Made by a program: the position numbers and the translations under genes
Part shown: in pieces, positions 1,131 through 6,784 of the stretch
Numbering within the stretch: the stretch's first letter is position 1
Layout of the letters: every line of letters starts with the position of its first letter
The notes under the pieces: generated by a model
Told to the model about the DNA's origin: nothing
The model's database searches: none
The model's input: only the letters and a program-made list of their open reading frames with translations
Assembly: GCA_048882325.1 (NCBI GenBank)
Contig: JBHLRS010000032.1
Location: 1-33,061, forward strand
Length of the DNA: 33,061 bases
Reading direction: 5' to 3'
From: Candidatus Thorarchaeota archaeon
GTDB lineage: Archaea; Asgardarchaeota; Thorarchaeia; Thorarchaeales; Thorarchaeaceae

Positions 1131-1199
1131 TCAAAAGCTATACCGGTGTCTGTCAGGGAACTCTTGCTTCTTCGCAAGGTTGAAAGAACTGTGCGCTTT
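1131..1199 (-). repeat. Degenerate copy 4 (most distal) of the nrdD 3' end
   Basis: Reverse complement translates KAHSSFNLAKKQEFPDRHRYSF* versus NrdD QALSSFNPSKKQEFLDRHRYAL* (15/22 identical, stop in register). Confidence 0.92.
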
Positions 1200-1305
1200 G
1201 TCTCATGTGTTCATCAGTTAAAGGGCAAAGTCCATGTTTCATCAAGAAGTCATGCAATGATGAAATAGTCCATAAGGAAGCAAGGCCAATATCAGACAGG
1301 CGTAA

Positions 1306-1983
1306 TTGGTGGACGGTTGTGTAGGAAAATCAGTTCTATTGCGGATTGTTGCATGTATAGTTGTTTTTGTACTTGTGGTTCAGTTAGTGTCAATTTCCAC
1401 ATCTGAGTCACCGGTCATCATTTATGAACCTGAATGGAATGTGATAAAAGGAAGTCTCCTTACATACGAAATAAACGTGACAGGGGACCGAGATGAATTG
1501 AACGGGTTGTACTCATATCAATGGGTACATCTCAATAATACAAGAATCATTGTAAATGTGACATATCTCCCAAATCTTGTTGAGTTCTATACCTCAGAAA
1601 ATTTCATTCTGGATGTGGTTGACGTTCAAAAAGTGGTTTGCTGTTTTGAGAATGGAACTTCCCTTTCTGAATCAGACTCATTTGTTAGTACACTTATTTC
1701 CAGGGCCTTATTGCCAGTTTCTTCATGGAAAAACTTCGATTCCATGTTCCCGGATCATTTCAGTGGGCAATGGGAGATGTATGAGCCAAACTATTCGTGG
1801 GTAGCAGGTTTTGAAGGGGATCGCTTCTTCTTTGGATATCTGGGAGAATCATGGCATTTTTCCAGAGGATGGAGCGCGCAGATAGAGTTGACATCAGGCA
1901 TTCCTTACAGAATAGAAAATCATGACAACTATCATGACTATGGATTCACAACTGATATAATTGAATTGACTCTTGTGGACTAA
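1306..1983 (+). CDS. Hypothetical membrane-anchored/secreted protein; paralogue of 2114..2773
   Basis: N-terminal hydrophobic helix, several N-x-S/T sequons, colinear motifs shared with the next gene (W-x-V, LNxTxIxVxxTYLPxL, KVxCxFxNxT, (L/I)PVxxW, terminal ELTL). Exact start uncertain. Confidence 0.8.
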   Translation: MVDGCVGKSVLLRIVACIVVFVLVVQLVSISTSESPVIIYEPEWNVIKGSLLTYEINVTGDRDELNGLYSYQWVHLNNTRIIVNVTYLPNLVEFYTSENFILDVVDVQKVVCCFENGTSLSESDSFVSTLISRALLPVSSWKNFDSMFPDHFSGQWEMYEPNYSWVAGFEGDRFFFGYLGESWHFSRGWSAQIELTSGIPYRIENHDNYHDYGFTTDIIELTLVD

Positions 1984-2012
1984 TTTCAGAATCGCAAACA
2001 AGAGCGAACCAA

Positions 2013-2057
2013 TCATATCCCATAAAGAAACCTGTCCAGAAATTCCTGTTTCTTTGG
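2013..2057 (-). repeat. Degenerate, shortened copy 3 of the nrdD 3' end
   Basis: Reverse complement translates PKKQEFLDRFLYGI*; KKQEFLDR identical to NrdD, Tyr and stop in register. Confidence 0.88.
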
Positions 2058-2113
2058 TAGAAAAATCTAAGAGGAGTCTATCCTTGACTATTGATTTAGA
2101 GGGGGTTTCTCAT

Positions 2114-3663: not shown

Positions 3664-3679
3664 ACCGAATTGTTTGGTA

Positions 3680-3754
3680 TCAGAGTGTATATCGGTGCCT
3701 ATCCAGAAATTCCTGTTTCTTTGCGGGATTGAATGACGAAAGTGACTGGAAGAA
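3680..3754 (-). repeat. Degenerate copy 1 (most proximal) of the nrdD 3' end
   Basis: Reverse complement translates FFQSLSSFNPAKKQEFLDRHRYTL*; 19/22 identical from the Gln, 10 codons differ only synonymously (including Ser AGT vs TCA), stop TGA vs TAG. Confidence 0.97.
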
Positions 3755-3837
3755 TTCATGCAAATAGACTGTCGAAATCTGCCTGAATTCTGTTGGGAAA
3801 CTTGTTTATGCTTTTCAAAAATATGTAGTTGTAGATA

Positions 3838-4578
3838 CTATCTATTATACACAAGAGCAACGTCCTTAGTCTTGTATACATGAATTTCTCTTCCATTCGA
3901 AGCTCTCAAAACAGTTTCACCACCATTCTGCCATTTCTTCATTGCTTTCAGTGTAGGTTTACCTTCGTCACTGTTCAGCCAGTCTGTGACCTCGTGCACA
4001 TCGGGATCATCAATGGCTGCTATTGCCTTGGTCACCTTCACTCCTCTTCCGATTGTTTCAAAAAGGCTCTTCTGTAACCAGCGTTCGCGTTTACTACCAG
4101 CTTCCTCAACTGGGACGAGCCAACAACCAAGACCATAGATCCTGTCAATCACATGTGACGTATAGAACCTCTCGAGCTCTTGTTGATAGTGAACGACGAT
4201 TTGATAGGGTTCTCTGCCTTCTATCTCGATGCTCACTTCATGGGTCTGCTTTATCTCGTATAATATTATTGTGACGAGTGGGCCCACAGTTCTACACTTC
4301 TCTTTATACTCCTCGCTGGAGGGGTCACAATCATCATCACAGAAGAAATGACGAACGATCTCATTCTCAATCGCCACCATATAGTTACTGTCTATATTGT
4401 AGGGATACCATTTCTTATACTCGATCTTCTTCTGACCACTCTGCGCTTCGTGAATCTGTTTTTCAATAGAGCGTACTGTGTCATGTATCATCTCCTCTGC
4501 AACAGTAACTGTATCATCTAAGGAAACTCCTCTCTCTTGAATGTACCTTAGAGCAGCACGTTGATGCTCCTTTCGCAT
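3838..4578 (-). CDS. Hypothetical soluble protein
   Basis: 246-aa ORF with protein-like charged composition and AGGA upstream; fills the gap between nrdD and repeat copy 1; no recognisable motif. Confidence 0.75.
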   Translation of the reverse strand: MRKEHQRAALRYIQERGVSLDDTVTVAEEMIHDTVRSIEKQIHEAQSGQKKIEYKKWYPYNIDSNYMVAIENEIVRHFFCDDDCDPSSEEYKEKCRTVGPLVTIILYEIKQTHEVSIEIEGREPYQIVVHYQQELERFYTSHVIDRIYGLGCWLVPVEEAGSKRERWLQKSLFETIGRGVKVTKAIAAIDDPDVHEVTDWLNSDEGKPTLKAMKKWQNGGETVLRASNGREIHVYKTKDVALVYNR

Positions 4579-4642
4579 AGTCCTGATTGAATCGGAAAGT
4601 GCTATTACTGTTTCGTATATTTTTCCTTTGAGCGAGTAGAAG

Positions 4643-6784
4643 CTATAGGGCGTATCGATGCCTGTCCAAGAACTCCTGTTTCTTCGAAGGATTGAAACTC
4701 GACAAAGCCTGGAGGTACCCGGTTATCCTACTGAATACTTCCATTCCAACTGTCCCACATTTTGGACATACTATTCTTGAGAGGTCCTCAATGGTCTGGA
4801 ATTTTGTAATCCTCCAATCGATTCCTGTTTGGTAATTACAAGTACCGCAACGACACACGTCTTTAGTGAAGCTCCAGTATGAGTTTAACGTGGACGTGGC
4901 AATTTTCTTGGTAAGTTCCCAAAGCGCTTCAGGATCAGGATTTGCTTCTCCAAGATAGATGTGAGTGAGTGCTCCTCCATCCAGGTATGGGTGGAACATC
5001 CCTTCCTTTTTGATACGTTGAGTGAGCGGGAGATTAGCATTGACGTCAAGCGTCGTGCTGTTTGTATAGTATACATTTGGTGCTTGACCTTTGAGGTACT
5101 TCCGCATTCCTGGATACGCTTTGTAGTCCTTGATAGCGAGTCGACCTGCTGCGCTCTCCGCGGGAGTCCTTGTCACACCGAAATGGAAACCGGTCTCTTC
5201 TTGGAACTCAGCAGCCTTTCCTTTAAGGTGTTTGAGGACTTTGATTCCAAAACGGGTTCCCTCTCGCTCATGGAGTTGTTCACCGACCATTACTGATGCC
5301 ATCTCGTCAAACCCAACAGTCCCAAGTAGGAACTCTCGCTTGTTCATGTCAATGAGTGGATCACCATTTGGTTTGGGTTGAGTGTAGAACGGGACACTGC
5401 CGCTGGCAATCAGTTTGTCCATGAGCCGCTTTTTCTCGAGGATGACCTCCTTCGAGAGTTCAACATACTCGTCAACCTTCTCGAAGAACTTGTCCTCATC
5501 AGCACGACCTAACCATGCTGCGCGACCAAAGTTAGGAGTCACCATCTGTGAGGCTCCAAACACCATGTTGCCACTCAGGAACTCCTCCAGTTCCTCATCA
5601 CTGCTTGCTGTCCAGAGGTGAGAACAGCAACTGCTACAACCGGCCTCAATCTTTGATCGCCAGTTCAGATAGTTCTCAAAATAGGGAGACCCATGCTTGG
5701 CGGTGAGTTCTGCGACAAGCCCCCAGGATGCGTCATACTCCGAACCCATGAATTCCTTCCGGAGTACGATGTTCGGTTTTGGAAAGCCAAAGCCCTTTCC
5801 TTTAGCGTCACCTCTCAGCATGACCTCCATAAAGGCATTGAAGAACAGACGCGCTTCTTCTTCGAAGTCTCCATAGGTGACCTCTGTCTCTTTCCCTCCC
5901 GGTAAGACTGCTGGAACATCCCTCATTATCTTAGGGATTCCTGGAGTGAGATCGACACTGGAAAAGATCACCTGGCCTCCACGCGCAACATACTGTTGAG
6001 TAAGCGTGAAGACTAATTGTTGTGCAGCCTGCTTGATCTTCCTGTAGGGTTGCCCTTTCATGAAAGGAGCAAGAAACGTGTTGAAGTAGAAATACCCCTG
6101 ACCACCTGCAAAAGAGCTCTGGGCGGCAGCCAACCAAATGGCAGAATGGTTTACAGCCACCGATAGATGCTGAGCTGGACCAGCGGCACTAGAATGCATT
6201 CCACCGAGACCATCAGGAGCAATGCCCAATTTGAGAACCTGTCTCAAGTCCCAGGTTGCACAATAGTCGCGAGTACTGAAGTACTCTCGATCTTTGATGT
6301 AGATGTCACCACTCAGATGGGCATCTGCAAGGTGAGAGGGTATTGAAAGGTAAGTGTGCTGCTCCATCACTTGGTCGTGCACGAGCTTTGCGATTGTTTC
6401 AGGGTTACGCATGAGATTAGCATTCGATGTGTGATCACCAGGATTGTTAATGAGGAGTCCTAGGTCATGCATTGGGATACCGACTCTTGTGTAAAGAATG
6501 CGTTCCTTTTCGAATCCCATTTCAGCGAGGATACTGTTACACATCTCACGGATTAGGGGACCAGAGAGGAATTGGATGCCAGATGCAACAATTCTGTCCA
6601 TAACTCTTACAGCTACGAGTTGAGCATCAGCATGAAGAAGACCCGCCTCTAGAACAAGGCTATCAATGATTTTTGTAGAGTCGAATGCCTCCATTGTGGA
6701 ACTGGTGGTTCGGACTTTGGGCATCTTCTTTTCGCGAAGACGTAGTTCCTCAGTTGTAGCAAGTGCGTCATGAATGTCAGTCAT
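4643..6784 (-). CDS. nrdD: Anaerobic (class III) ribonucleoside-triphosphate reductase with N-terminal ATP cone
   Basis: ATP cone (FDSTKIIDSL...PLIRE), AHLSGDIYIKD...YC, GGQ motifs, SSCC finger loop, TPAES, YYTNS, GGALTHI, Zn site CGTC...CPKC, glycyl-radical motif SRITGYL. Confidence 0.97.
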   Translation of the reverse strand: MTDIHDALATTEELRLREKKMPKVRTTSSTMEAFDSTKIIDSLVLEAGLLHADAQLVAVRVMDRIVASGIQFLSGPLIREMCNSILAEMGFEKERILYTRVGIPMHDLGLLINNPGDHTSNANLMRNPETIAKLVHDQVMEQHTYLSIPSHLADAHLSGDIYIKDREYFSTRDYCATWDLRQVLKLGIAPDGLGGMHSSAAGPAQHLSVAVNHSAIWLAAAQSSFAGGQGYFYFNTFLAPFMKGQPYRKIKQAAQQLVFTLTQQYVARGGQVIFSSVDLTPGIPKIMRDVPAVLPGGKETEVTYGDFEEEARLFFNAFMEVMLRGDAKGKGFGFPKPNIVLRKEFMGSEYDASWGLVAELTAKHGSPYFENYLNWRSKIEAGCSSCCSHLWTASSDEELEEFLSGNMVFGASQMVTPNFGRAAWLGRADEDKFFEKVDEYVELSKEVILEKKRLMDKLIASGSVPFYTQPKPNGDPLIDMNKREFLLGTVGFDEMASVMVGEQLHEREGTRFGIKVLKHLKGKAAEFQEETGFHFGVTRTPAESAAGRLAIKDYKAYPGMRKYLKGQAPNVYYTNSTTLDVNANLPLTQRIKKEGMFHPYLDGGALTHIYLGEANPDPEALWELTKKIATSTLNSYWSFTKDVCRCGTCNYQTGIDWRITKFQTIEDLSRIVCPKCGTVGMEVFSRITGYLQALSSFNPSKKQEFLDRHRYAL

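What the first reader, a model, noticed from the sequence alone, without database searches (positions are those of the whole stretch)
1131..4717. Gene-cassette array delimited by repeated copies of the nrdD 3' end: a candidate gene-capture system
Seen: every intergenic space downstream of nrdD holds a minus-strand copy of the last codons and stop of nrdD. Native 4643-4717 YLQALSSFNPSKKQEFLDRHRYAL*; 3680-3754 FFQSLSSFNPAKKQEFLDRHRYTL*; 2787-2858 VQGVSSFNPAKKQEFLDRHRYSL*; 2013-2057 PKKQEFLDRFLYGI*; 1131-1199 KAHSSFNLAKKQEFPDRHRYSF*. Stop-to-stop spacings are 963, 893, 774 and 882 bp, with exactly one cargo gene per interval. Three cargo genes are convergent and end only 13-29 bp from a tail's stop codon. 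Inference: each unit is [nrdD tail + one gene]; an incoming unit supplies a new functional C-terminus to nrdD and pushes the old tail and its gene downstream. That would be an integron-like accretion platform using a protein-coding housekeeping gene end as the attachment site, with no attC sites and no recognisable integrase in the window. Integration with 3'-end replacement is known for large integrative elements, but I do not know of a described single-gene array of this form.
Basis: partly seen in the sequence, partly recalled or inferred. Interest (0 to 1): 0.95.

Follow-up and report, generated by a model that had tools for sequence, protein, structure and literature searches.

The report
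Stack of displaced nrdD gene tails
Behind the anaerobic ribonucleotide reductase gene of this Thorarchaeota archaeon lies a real row of accessory genes separated by old copies of that gene's last 24 codons. Relatives show the row is built and reshuffled without any integrase, most likely starting from invasions by a selfish DNA-cutting-enzyme gene that brings a replacement gene end.

Summary
Five co-oriented copies of the nrdD 3' end lie at the stated coordinates (0 expected by chance). A sixth lies on the adjoining contig. Independent contigs from two studies bridge the copies.

The array is genus-wide. Of 45 related loci, 20 carry 1-9 displaced tails (54 in all, median spacing 909 bp). One species has the empty site, nrdD followed directly by an HhH-GPD glycosylase gene. 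Shared cargo genes occur in different orders.

A strain 99.97% identical over 10.9 kb diverges completely from a point inside tail 2. Gene B was acquired horizontally.

None of the more than 50 cargo ORFs scanned is an integrase or transposase. The genome lacks tyrosine and serine recombinases, IS110, TnpB and Cas1. The tails share no hairpin.

In relatives, an intact HNH+NUMOD3 homing endonuclease gene sits convergently 10-75 nt behind the nrdD stop. Its decayed C-terminus lies 14-15 nt behind both native and displaced tails.

Best reading (about 0.5): endonuclease-triggered tail replacement just after the glycyl-radical Gly codon, followed by tail-to-tail homologous recombination. The accretion reading holds; the integron-like mechanism does not.

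The same genome also has tail or head copies at etfA, actin, an MFS gene and secY. Earlier notes of this scan report similar stacks in other Asgard genomes. I found no published description.

The parts
4643..6784 (-). nrdD, class III (glycyl-radical) ribonucleotide reductase, 713 aa. This is the anchor gene of the array.
   Evidence: ORF. PF13597 NRDD is recorded on the identical gene. Orthologues are 86-92% identical across the genus.
4643..4717 (-). Tail 0: the native last 24 codons plus stop (YLQALSSFNPSKKQEFLDRHRYAL*).
   Evidence: Its 3' half carries the CATCGATAC allele that also precedes gene A's orthologues in G013 and G003.
4700..4735 (-). Boundary zone (codons 684-695, FSRITG|YLQALS). 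The left edge of nearly all displaced tails falls at the Tyr codon right after the radical Gly codon (4718-4720). This is the inferred insertion or cleavage point.
   Evidence: The nhmmer start positions of displaced tails cluster at model positions 45-50 of 123. Synonymous codon identity here is 0.82-0.84 of expectation, the lowest 0.6-0.9% of windows along nrdD.
3838..4578 (-). Gene A (family cl8), 246 aa, co-directional with nrdD. It is a Thorarchaeota-only ORFan and is the cargo of tail 0.
   Evidence: It has no Pfam or PHROG hit. Only 6 homologue clusters exist, and those that carry a source name are labelled Thorarchaeota. It occupies slot 1 here and slot 2 in G003 and G013. The AF2 model is unusable (pLDDT 43.6).
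3680..3754 (-). Tail 1: an intact displaced tail (FFQSLSSFNPAKKQEFLDRHRYTL*).
   Evidence: model positions 50-122. It is bridged by independent contigs.
2983..3663 (+). Gene B, a 226-aa membrane protein, convergent, ending 16 nt from the tail 1 stop. It is horizontally acquired cargo.
   Evidence: It has no Pfam hit. 161 homologues were found. A copy 77% aa / 83% nt identical sits in an unrelated chromosomal context with no tail (L043/L044). That organism's neighbouring genes are at most 36% identical to G000 or absent from it.
2787..2858 (-). Tail 2: a displaced tail and the site of a strain-level recombination junction.
   Evidence: GCA_048882565.1 contig JBHLRL010000028.1 is 99.97% identical to window 2791-13663. 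Two of its 3 mismatches lie at 2802 and 2807, inside this tail. Beyond the tail it has unrelated sequence: a DinB_2 gene, another tail and a cl5-like gene.
2111..2773 (+). Gene C (family cl5), a predicted membrane-anchored or secreted protein, convergent, ending 13 nt from the tail 2 stop.
   Evidence: It is 63% identical to gene E on C84 and 31% identical to gene D.
2013..2057 (-). Tail 3: a decayed displaced tail (PKKQEFLDRFLYGI*).
   Evidence: model positions 80-105 only.
1306..1983 (+). Gene D (family cl5 paralogue), convergent, ending 29 nt from the tail 3 stop.
1131..1199 (-). Tail 4: a displaced tail with two replacements (SSFNLAKKQEFPDRHRYSF*).
   Evidence: One run (X2) carries a mosaic variant with 12 differences, all at 1107-1167 and none in 1-1106 or 1168-1199.
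3..989 (-). The 5' half of a secreted right-handed beta-helix protein gene (family cl1). It continues on contig C84 and is the cargo of tail 4. It is the most widely shared and usually distal cassette in the genus.
   Evidence: PF13229 and PF05048. There is a 77-nt overlap with C84. Full-length orthologues in G014, G010, G015 and G024 are each preceded by a tail.

Best explanation
The locus is a stack of former nrdD 3' ends. Each tail was left behind when a module made of a working replacement tail plus one or a few genes was inserted just after the glycyl-radical Gly codon.

In this Thorarchaeota genus the original driver is most likely a free-standing HNH-NUMOD3 homing endonuclease gene. It sits convergently 10-15 nt behind the tail. 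The proposed steps are:
1. The enzyme breaks nrdD alleles near the Gly|Tyr codons.
2. Repair copies tail, endonuclease gene and neighbouring donor genes from an invaded allele.
3. Where the downstream flank is not homologous, the recipient's own tail, starting at the break, is retained behind the insert.
4. The endonuclease gene then decays and is lost, as in the usual homing cycle.
5. The ~74-nt tails remain as short direct repeats. Homologous recombination between them deletes, exchanges and re-orders the genes in between.

Shown:
- the architecture;
- the fixed left boundary of the tails;
- the empty site;
- genus-wide variation and strain-level replacement, with junctions inside tails;
- absence of known recombinases;
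- the endonuclease gene or its remnants directly behind native and displaced tails in relatives.

Inferred:
- that the endonuclease cuts at the boundary;
- that it caused the tail duplications;
- that the endonuclease-free array in this genome descends from such events.
For: (1) The same structure occurs in 20 of 45 related loci, with 54 displaced tails, all co-oriented with nrdD and with median spacing 909 bp.

(2) The empty site (nrdD, about 45 nt, then the HhH-GPD gene) is seen in G022 and L094.

(3) Displaced tails start at model positions 45-50, the Tyr codon after Gly, and end at the stop codon. A second discrete class of about 65-68 codons starts at Cys646-649 in two species. Discrete boundaries argue for site-specific breaks rather than random fragment ends.

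(4) An HNH (PF01844) plus NUMOD3 (PF07460) gene of 311-325 aa is intact and convergent, with its stop 10-75 nt after the nrdD stop. It occurs in L066/L067, L077 and L093, whose nrdD is 86%, 82% and 73% identical to the window's.

(5) Remnants of its C-terminus lie 14-15 nt after tail 0 in G008 and G016, and 30 nt after it in G001. They also follow tail 0 in L079, L073 and L084. They follow displaced tails in L070 (the 10th tail), L080 (the 2nd tail) and the long tail of G016.

(6) A paralogous HNH gene in G022 sits between a tRNA gene and a 23-nt copy of that tRNA's 3' end.

(7) Junctions lie inside tails. The strain pair differs from tail 2 onward. In addition, the 5' third of a tail tracks its upstream neighbour and the 3' third tracks its downstream neighbour.

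(8) There is excess synonymous diversity exactly at the boundary.

(9) No integrase, transposase or Cas1 was found in the cargo ORFs scanned with Pfam from the GTDB-genome arrays and other G000 loci (most metagenome-only cargo families were not scanned). None was found in G000 either. PF00589 is absent from 19 of 28 genomes of the genus.

(10) There is precedent. Free-standing HNH endonucleases mobilise flanking DNA at phage RNR genes (PMC2790892). Degenerate endonuclease ORFs lie between fungal mitochondrial genes and C-terminal duplications of them (PMC6279837).
Against: - The window's own array has no detectable endonuclease gene or remnant.
- The four loci with an intact endonuclease have no displaced tail and no flanking duplication. 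The link between cutting and tail duplication is therefore circumstantial.
- Several convergent cargo genes (cl2, cl5, gene B) end 8-17 nt from the tail stop, leaving no room for a former endonuclease gene.
- The native tail as a whole shows no extra synonymous divergence.
- Tail decay does not increase with distance from nrdD.
- No cleavage assay exists.
- All genomes are MAGs. Mobile elements that encode a recombinase could have been lost in binning.
Confidence: 0.5

Rival explanations
1. Purely homologous (RadA-dependent) traffic, with no dedicated nuclease. Circles carrying a tail plus cargo arise by loop-out between two tails, or by circularisation of donor fragments. They integrate by single crossover (Campbell type) at any tail. 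The ends of highly conserved genes are used simply because only they keep enough identity between species.
For: Junctions fall in the most conserved 30 nt of the tail. Cassette order is shuffled. No recombinase was found in the genome. The same genome has tail copies at etfA, actin and an MFS gene. It also has mirror-image 5' head copies at secY and another gene, as expected if any gene end can serve.
Against: Random fragment ends should give a continuum of tail lengths. Instead about 50 tails share one left boundary, and two share a second one. This model does not explain the first duplication. It also does not explain why the endonuclease gene or its remnant lies directly behind so many tails.
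Confidence: 0.22
2. Classical site-specific integration. Viruses, plasmids or satellites whose attP copies the nrdD 3' end integrate through a tyrosine (or unknown) recombinase supplied in trans. The small units are integrase-less satellites or deletion remnants, as with tycheposon islands or CIME accretion.
For: The architecture is identical to tandem att arrays (10.1101/2020.12.28.424599; PMC6563490 reports archaeal elements in 3'-distal parts of protein genes and tandem re-use of sites). Boundaries are discrete. G015 contig C101 has a 76-codon tail preceded by element-like genes, including a weak primase-like ORF. Tyrosine recombinases exist in 8 of 28 genomes.
Against: No integrase or fragment of one was found in any cargo ORF scanned, in about 75 cassette intervals. 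None lies on an array contig. Ten integrase contigs carry no convincing tail (best E 0.18-0.56). The best-assembled array-bearing genomes (G000, G001, G003, G013, G014, G017) have no PF00589 at all. Units are mostly single genes of 0.6-1.5 kb.
Confidence: 0.15
3. Local tandem duplication of [tail + downstream gene] followed by divergence, with no import of DNA.
For: Genes C, D and E are paralogues in separate units. G001 has two adjacent beta-helix paralogues.
Against: Most neighbouring cargo genes are unrelated. Gene B is foreign. An empty site exists. The strain pair shows replacement by unrelated sequence. Order differs between arrays.
Confidence: 0.03

Closest known systems
Free-standing homing endonuclease genes with a carried C-terminal duplication of the host gene, in fungal mitochondria (for example partial cob and atp6 duplications with degenerate LAGLIDADG/GIY-YIG ORFs between; PMC6279837)
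   Same: A selfish endonuclease gene lies just behind a conserved gene. An orphan copy of the gene's C-terminal coding part lies beyond it. The endonuclease degenerates after fixation.
   Different: Here the host is an archaeal chromosome and the nuclease is HNH-NUMOD3. The process has iterated up to at least 9 times at one gene. The intervals hold ordinary accessory genes under purifying selection. The tails are then re-used as recombination sites that shuffle those genes.
Phage T4 MobE and related free-standing HNH endonucleases at RNR genes (intronless homing; PMC2790892, PMC2988022)
   Same: An HNH family endonuclease gene sits beside a ribonucleotide reductase gene. A double-strand break in endonuclease-free alleles leads to co-conversion of flanking DNA.
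   Different: In T4 no tail duplication or stack is produced, because both flanks are homologous. Here the downstream flank is variable, and the recipient's tail is retained.
Tycheposon islands and other tandem integrative-element arrays (10.1101/2020.12.28.424599; archaeal iMGEs in 3'-distal regions of protein genes, PMC6563490)
   Same: Repeated insertion at the 3' end of one conserved gene. Each insertion supplies a replacement end and pushes older ones inward. Partial target-gene copies punctuate a flexible island of niche genes.
   Different: Those elements carry tyrosine recombinases, and their remnants include integrase fragments. Here none is present in the cassettes or in most genomes.
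Integrons (IntI, attI, attC cassettes)
   Same: Arrays of mostly single, promoter-variable accessory genes separated by a repeated site. Cassette order differs between relatives.
   Different: There is no IntI, no attC hairpin and no common promoter. The repeated site is the coding end of a housekeeping gene.

Membership tests
Integron | IntI-type tyrosine recombinase adjacent to the array | tested here: not met
   PF00589 is absent from G000 and from 19 of 28 genomes of the genus. No copy lies on an array contig.
Integron | attC sites: imperfect inverted repeats that fold as single-stranded hairpins | tested here: not met
   Folded as ssDNA, tails 0, 1 and 4 have z-scores of -0.1 to +1.1. Only tail 2 folds well (z -2.3 and -3.3), through its own private 5' part.
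Integron | Array of small, mostly single-gene cassettes separated by a repeated site, variable between relatives | tested here: met
Homing-endonuclease element with C-terminal duplication (mORF-like, intronless homing) | Endonuclease gene immediately beside the target gene end | tested here: inconclusive
   Met in relatives: an intact HNH+NUMOD3 gene in 4 loci, and remnants behind 10 or more native or displaced tails. Not met in the window's own array.
Homing-endonuclease element with C-terminal duplication (mORF-like, intronless homing) | Orphan copy of the target gene's C-terminal coding segment beyond the insert, with a functional replacement joined in frame | tested here: met
Homing-endonuclease element with C-terminal duplication (mORF-like, intronless homing) | Recoded (cleavage-resistant) target site in invaded alleles | tested here: inconclusive
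   There is a local excess of synonymous diversity at the boundary (lowest 0.6-0.9% of windows). The tail as a whole is ordinary, and no consistent difference between endonuclease-plus and endonuclease-minus alleles was seen.
Homing-endonuclease element with C-terminal duplication (mORF-like, intronless homing) | Site-specific cleavage of endonuclease-free alleles | not testable with these tools
   This needs a biochemical assay.
Integrative element arrays (tycheposon / CIME accretion type) | Direct repeats that are partial copies of the target gene's 3' end flanking each unit | tested here: met
Integrative element arrays (tycheposon / CIME accretion type) | Integrase (intact or fragmentary) in at least some units, or an autonomous helper carrying the same att | tested here: not met
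   No integrase among the cargo ORFs scanned. Ten integrase contigs of the genus lack a convincing tail.
Integrative element arrays (tycheposon / CIME accretion type) | Excised circular form | not testable with these tools
   Only Logan contigs were available, and they showed no joints.

The most novel reading that the evidence does not exclude
Asgard archaea possess a general, integrase-free way of acquiring and shuffling genes. Homing-endonuclease breaks at the ends of highly conserved genes (nrdD, etfA, actin, secY and others) are repaired from foreign alleles that bring a portable replacement end plus neighbouring genes. The accumulated gene-end copies then act as recombination sites, turning the regions behind housekeeping genes into cassette arrays that record and re-assort horizontally acquired genes.
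Probability: 0.35. Interest if true: 0.85.

Novelty: new variant of a known kind. Interest (0 to 1): 0.77.

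Why it matters
Asgard archaea are the closest known relatives of eukaryotes, yet little is known about how they take up genes. Published non-viral integrated elements are few: aloposons (PMC8813620) and Atabeyarchaeia elements with integrases (PMC11529989).

This locus, its relatives and the sister loci in the same genome suggest a route of gene gain that needs no integrase or transposase. The route leaves a readable footprint and targets the most conserved genes.

If the endonuclease link holds, it would show that selfish homing elements can, as a by-product, build integron-like stores of accessory genes. It would also give a simple sequence signature (orphan gene ends) for finding recently acquired genes in MAGs.

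There is a practical consequence too. These repeats break assemblies and can mislead annotation of gene ends.

Tried and rejected
- IMG/VR scan for the tail's codon pattern: the single hit is a phage's own 1553-aa nrdD, which is irrelevant.
- Aloposons are unrelated. They have giant genes and use tRNA sites.
- Gene A as a hidden nuclease or recombinase: no Pfam, PHROG or Atlas lead. The AF2 model has pLDDT 43.6, so no fold search was run.
- Integrase contigs of the genus: no convincing tail. A 39-nt stretch 69% like the tail's 5' part lies about 400 nt from the integrase on G007:C180 (E 0.56). I do not count it.
- Free-standing LAGLIDADG ORFs in the genus: nearly all sit at contig ends, so their flanks could not be assessed.
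- 'Tails evolve faster at silent sites': the first calculation was an artefact of gap columns. With correct columns the tail is ordinary.
- 'Older tails are more decayed': no correlation over 54 tails.
- Selection on displaced tails: their conservation (83%) is close to third-codon-position identity in adjacent cargo (75%), so no constraint is needed.
- Logan contigs: no joints and no circular junctions. Runs X5 and X6 cover only parts of the stretch, which proves nothing.
- ABC-transporter cargo at the actin tail (G000) against the nrdD array (G014): only 52% identical, so not the same cassette.
- Flanking duplications around the intact endonuclease genes at nrdD: none.
- Complex prediction and the representative-protein search were not used.

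Full report
**The observation**

On the minus strand of the window, nrdD (4643-6784) ends with YLQALSSFNPSKKQEFLDRHRYAL*. Four further co-oriented copies of this end lie at 3680-3754, 2787-2858, 2013-2057 and 1131-1199, with one long ORF in each interval. A degenerate codon pattern for KKQEFLDR finds exactly these five sites, against none in 100 shuffles.

In the whole 3.6-Mb genome the only other copy is on contig C84 at 1076-1123. C84 overlaps the window's left end by 77 nt. It carries the second half of the beta-helix gene that runs off the window. That gene is a single 650-aa gene in relatives. The array therefore reads:

nrdD-T0-A-T1-B-T2-C-T3-D-T4-(beta-helix)-T5-E-(HhH-GPD glycosylase)-(PLP enzyme)

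. Contigs assembled independently from runs of two studies bridge T1, T2, T3 and T4, so this is not an assembly chimera. Names given by NCBI to homologues place the organism in the Thorarchaeota.

**What the copies are**

A profile of native tails shows where displaced copies begin and end. They begin at model positions 45-50 of 123, which is the Tyr codon right after the glycyl-radical Gly codon. They end at the stop codon, giving about 74 nt.

Differences between copies in one genome are largely synonymous. Tail 1 encodes exactly the native tail of other species. Each copy was therefore a working nrdD end in some lineage before it was displaced.

The tails share no hairpin.

**Comparative picture**

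The genus has 28 species-level genomes. Nearly every contig that extends beyond nrdD shows the same thing: 1 to at least 8 displaced tails, always co-oriented. In G022, nrdD is followed after about 45 nt by the HhH-GPD gene that closes the array elsewhere. That is the empty site.

A metagenome scan added 38 loci. Over all 45 loci with the native tail on the contig:
- 20 have displaced tails, 54 in all.
- The largest array has 9 displaced tails in 10 kb (L070).
- Median spacing is 909 bp (IQR 601-1454).
- A more distant lineage (nrdD 73% identical) also has displaced tails (L084).

Cargo is ordinary accessory material. It includes a luciferase-like monooxygenase, an ABC transporter, an alpha/beta hydrolase, a C11 peptidase, a BNR protein, LarA, TPR, ParA-like and EamA proteins, an aminotransferase and beta-helix surface proteins. 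Many small membrane or zinc-ribbon proteins of unknown function occur as well.

**The unit and its junctions**

The tail on the nrdD side travels with the cargo behind it. Among orthologous cassettes it is 83-94% identical, against 53-60% for the tail on the far side.

Position by position, the first third of a tail follows its upstream neighbour and the last third follows its downstream neighbour. The switch lies in the conserved core AATCCTGCNAAGAARCARGARTTYCTNGAY.

The clearest case is a strain pair. NCBI contig JBHLRL010000028.1 (GCA_048882565.1) matches window 2791-13663 with 3 mismatches in 10,873 nt. Two of those mismatches are inside T2. From the end of T2 onward it has unrelated DNA: a DinB_2 gene, another tail, and a cl5-like gene only 66-79% similar to C or E. 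Run X2 has a mosaic T4. Tails are therefore recombination junctions at the strain level.

**Dynamics**

Many shared cassettes are about as diverged as the flanking core genes. Much of an array is therefore inherited vertically, with losses.

Order is not fixed, however:
- cl24 precedes cl14 in L090 but follows it in L092.
- cl17 is first in G003 and G001 but last in L070.
- The PLP enzyme gene lies between tails and before the beta-helix gene in G015.

Tail decay does not increase with rank (rho 0.06).

Gene B is foreign. A copy 83% identical in DNA lies in a different chromosomal context in an organism whose neighbouring genes are at most 36% identical to G000 or absent from it.

**What does it? 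Not a known recombinase**

None of the cargo ORFs scanned with Pfam is an integrase or transposase. The scan covered representatives of nearly all cargo families in the GTDB-genome arrays and the other G000 loci. Most cargo families seen only in the metagenome loci were not scanned.

G000 (93% complete) has no PF00589, PF00239, IS110, TnpB or Cas1 match. Tyrosine recombinases occur in only 8 of 28 genomes, never on array contigs. Ten integrase contigs carry no convincing tail.

**The lead from earlier notes of this scan**

Several unchecked notes (e1-5477731, e1-5478103, e1-5395848, e1-5416458) describe stacks of displaced tails behind actin, hydrogenase and tfb genes in other Asgard genomes. 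They attribute them to homing endonucleases. I tested that idea here.

The metagenome loci contain a 311-325-aa gene, convergent to nrdD, with its stop 10-75 nt after the nrdD stop. It passes the Pfam thresholds for HNH and NUMOD3. It is intact in L066/L067, L077 and L093, which represent three lineages.

Remnants of its C-terminal 19-58 codons lie 14-15 nt behind T0 in G008 and G016, and 30 nt behind T0 in G001. They also lie behind T0 in L079, L073 and L084. Critically, they also lie behind displaced tails: the tenth tail of L070, the second tail of L080 and the long tail of G016. In G014 the remnant is separated from T0 by three inserted genes.

A paralogous HNH gene in G022 lies between an intron-bearing tRNA gene and a 23-nt copy of the tRNA's 3' end.

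Along nrdD, the 12-16 codons centred on the tail boundary have the lowest 0.6-0.9% of composition-corrected synonymous codon identity. That is what a contested endonuclease site would show. The tail as a whole is ordinary.

**Model**

The endonuclease breaks naive nrdD alleles at or near GGN|TAY. Repair from an invaded allele copies the replacement tail, the endonuclease gene and whatever lies behind it. If the far side has no homology, the broken recipient end, which starts at the cut, is joined behind the insert. This gives an orphan tail with a fixed left edge.

A second discrete class of about 65-68-codon tails starting at Cys646-649 (G015 C101, G016 C207) would mark a second cut site.

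The endonuclease gene then decays. The tails persist and support homologous deletion, replacement and re-assortment.

Caveats:
- The window's own array has no endonuclease trace.
- Loci with an intact endonuclease have no orphan tail.
- Several convergent cargo genes abut the tail too closely to have replaced an endonuclease gene.

I therefore put this model at about 0.5. Purely homologous Campbell-type traffic gets about 0.22, a trans-acting integrase about 0.15 and tandem duplication about 0.03.

**Generality within the genome**

A self-comparison of G000 finds the same footprint elsewhere:
- Two decayed etfA tails, with one gene per interval.
- One actin tail, behind an ABC-transporter operon.
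- One tail of an MFS gene.
- Mirror-image 5' head copies of secY (left next to rpl15) and of a small gene on C8.

nrdD is therefore the largest example of a genome-wide process, not a special platform.

**Comparison with what is known**

Integration into the 3' ends of archaeal protein genes and tandem re-use of sites are known, but with integrases (PMC6563490). So are tRNA-anchored islands punctuated by partial tRNAs (10.1101/2020.12.28.424599). Free-standing HNH endonucleases at phage RNR genes mobilise flanking DNA (PMC2790892). Fungal mitochondria show C-terminal duplications with decayed endonuclease ORFs between (PMC6279837).

I found no paper describing iterated stacks of orphan gene ends with cargo genes in archaeal chromosomes. 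I class this as a new variant of a known kind. The scan has noted the same kind of stack before on other Asgard DNA.

Noticed in passing
G000 contig C48 11405-14592 (locus L045 4406-7632): The etfA gene (C48 13432-14592, minus strand) has two decayed copies of its own 3' end downstream, at 12638-12787 and 11405-11515. There is one gene per interval (a 200-aa unknown; a hemerythrin-domain protein). A convergent 157-aa gene ends 2 nt from the last copy. This is the same grammar as the nrdD array.
   Followed up: partly
G000 contig C3 105488-109173 (locus L046 989-4674): The actin-homologue gene's last ~33 nt plus ~20 nt of 3' flank are repeated 2.4 kb downstream (87% identity). A convergent three-gene ABC-transporter operon lies in between.
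   Followed up: partly
G000 contig C3 148180-152567 (locus L114): This is the mirror image at a 5' end. A decayed copy of the first ~26 codons of secY (MTIRFLKALSPFVRIMPEVKTPDREV..stop) remains next to rpl15. Three unknown ORFs and then the functional secY follow 2.85 kb further on.
   Followed up: partly
G000 contig C2 147107-149633 (L047) and contig C8 66452-67754 (L115): An MFS transporter gene has a 36-nt copy of its 3' end 1.26 kb downstream. A 167-aa gene on C8 has a truncated 53-codon head copy 800 bp upstream, with a 148-aa ORF in between.
   Followed up: no
L116 (G022:C3) 6945-7889: A free-standing HNH endonuclease paralogue (7116-7868) lies between an intron-containing tRNA gene (6945-7048, Rfam 57.9 bits) and a 23-nt copy of the tRNA 3' end (7867-7889).
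   Followed up: partly
L030 (G015:C101) 460-5148: A 76-codon nrdD 3' fragment with its own start codon (an 85-aa ORF that includes the zinc ribbon and the RITGY motif) is preceded by ORFs of 218 aa and 661 aa with no family, and by a weak primase-like ORF. This may be the end of a larger element integrated in nrdD. No full-length nrdD was found in that MAG.
   Followed up: partly
whole genome G000 and genus: No tyrosine recombinase at all (not even a XerA-type one) is detectable in G000 or in 19 of 28 genomes of the genus, including the most complete ones. Serine recombinase, IS110, TnpB and Cas1 are also absent from G000.
   Followed up: partly
L043 10001-10681 and L044 2501-3181 (JGI metagenome contigs): A gene 83% identical in DNA to window gene B sits between a CDP-alcohol phosphatidyltransferase gene and an ATP-grasp gene, in an organism otherwise only distantly related. 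The homology stops exactly at the ORF ends.
   Followed up: partly
window 1107-1167 in run X2; window 1024 in run X5: One population has 12 substitutions confined to tail 4's 3' half and the spacer behind it, with none in 1-1106. Another population diverges completely 107 nt behind tail 4. These are strain-level mosaics at cassette edges.
   Followed up: no
G000 contig C59 3177-3218, 4408-4450, 8691-8732: A ~42-nt motif (ATGAAAGGGTGCTCAACAGTGAG...GGGAAAG) occurs three times in 5.5 kb at 81-90% identity. It is not a gene end, and its nature is unknown.
   Followed up: no
L023 (G014:C44) 4561-8526 compared with L024 (G016:C32): In G014, three genes (ABC ATPase, ABC-2 permease and a 405-aa unknown) are inserted between tail 0 and the endonuclease remnant, without any new tail. 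Genes therefore also enter cassettes by a route that leaves no tail copy.
   Followed up: no
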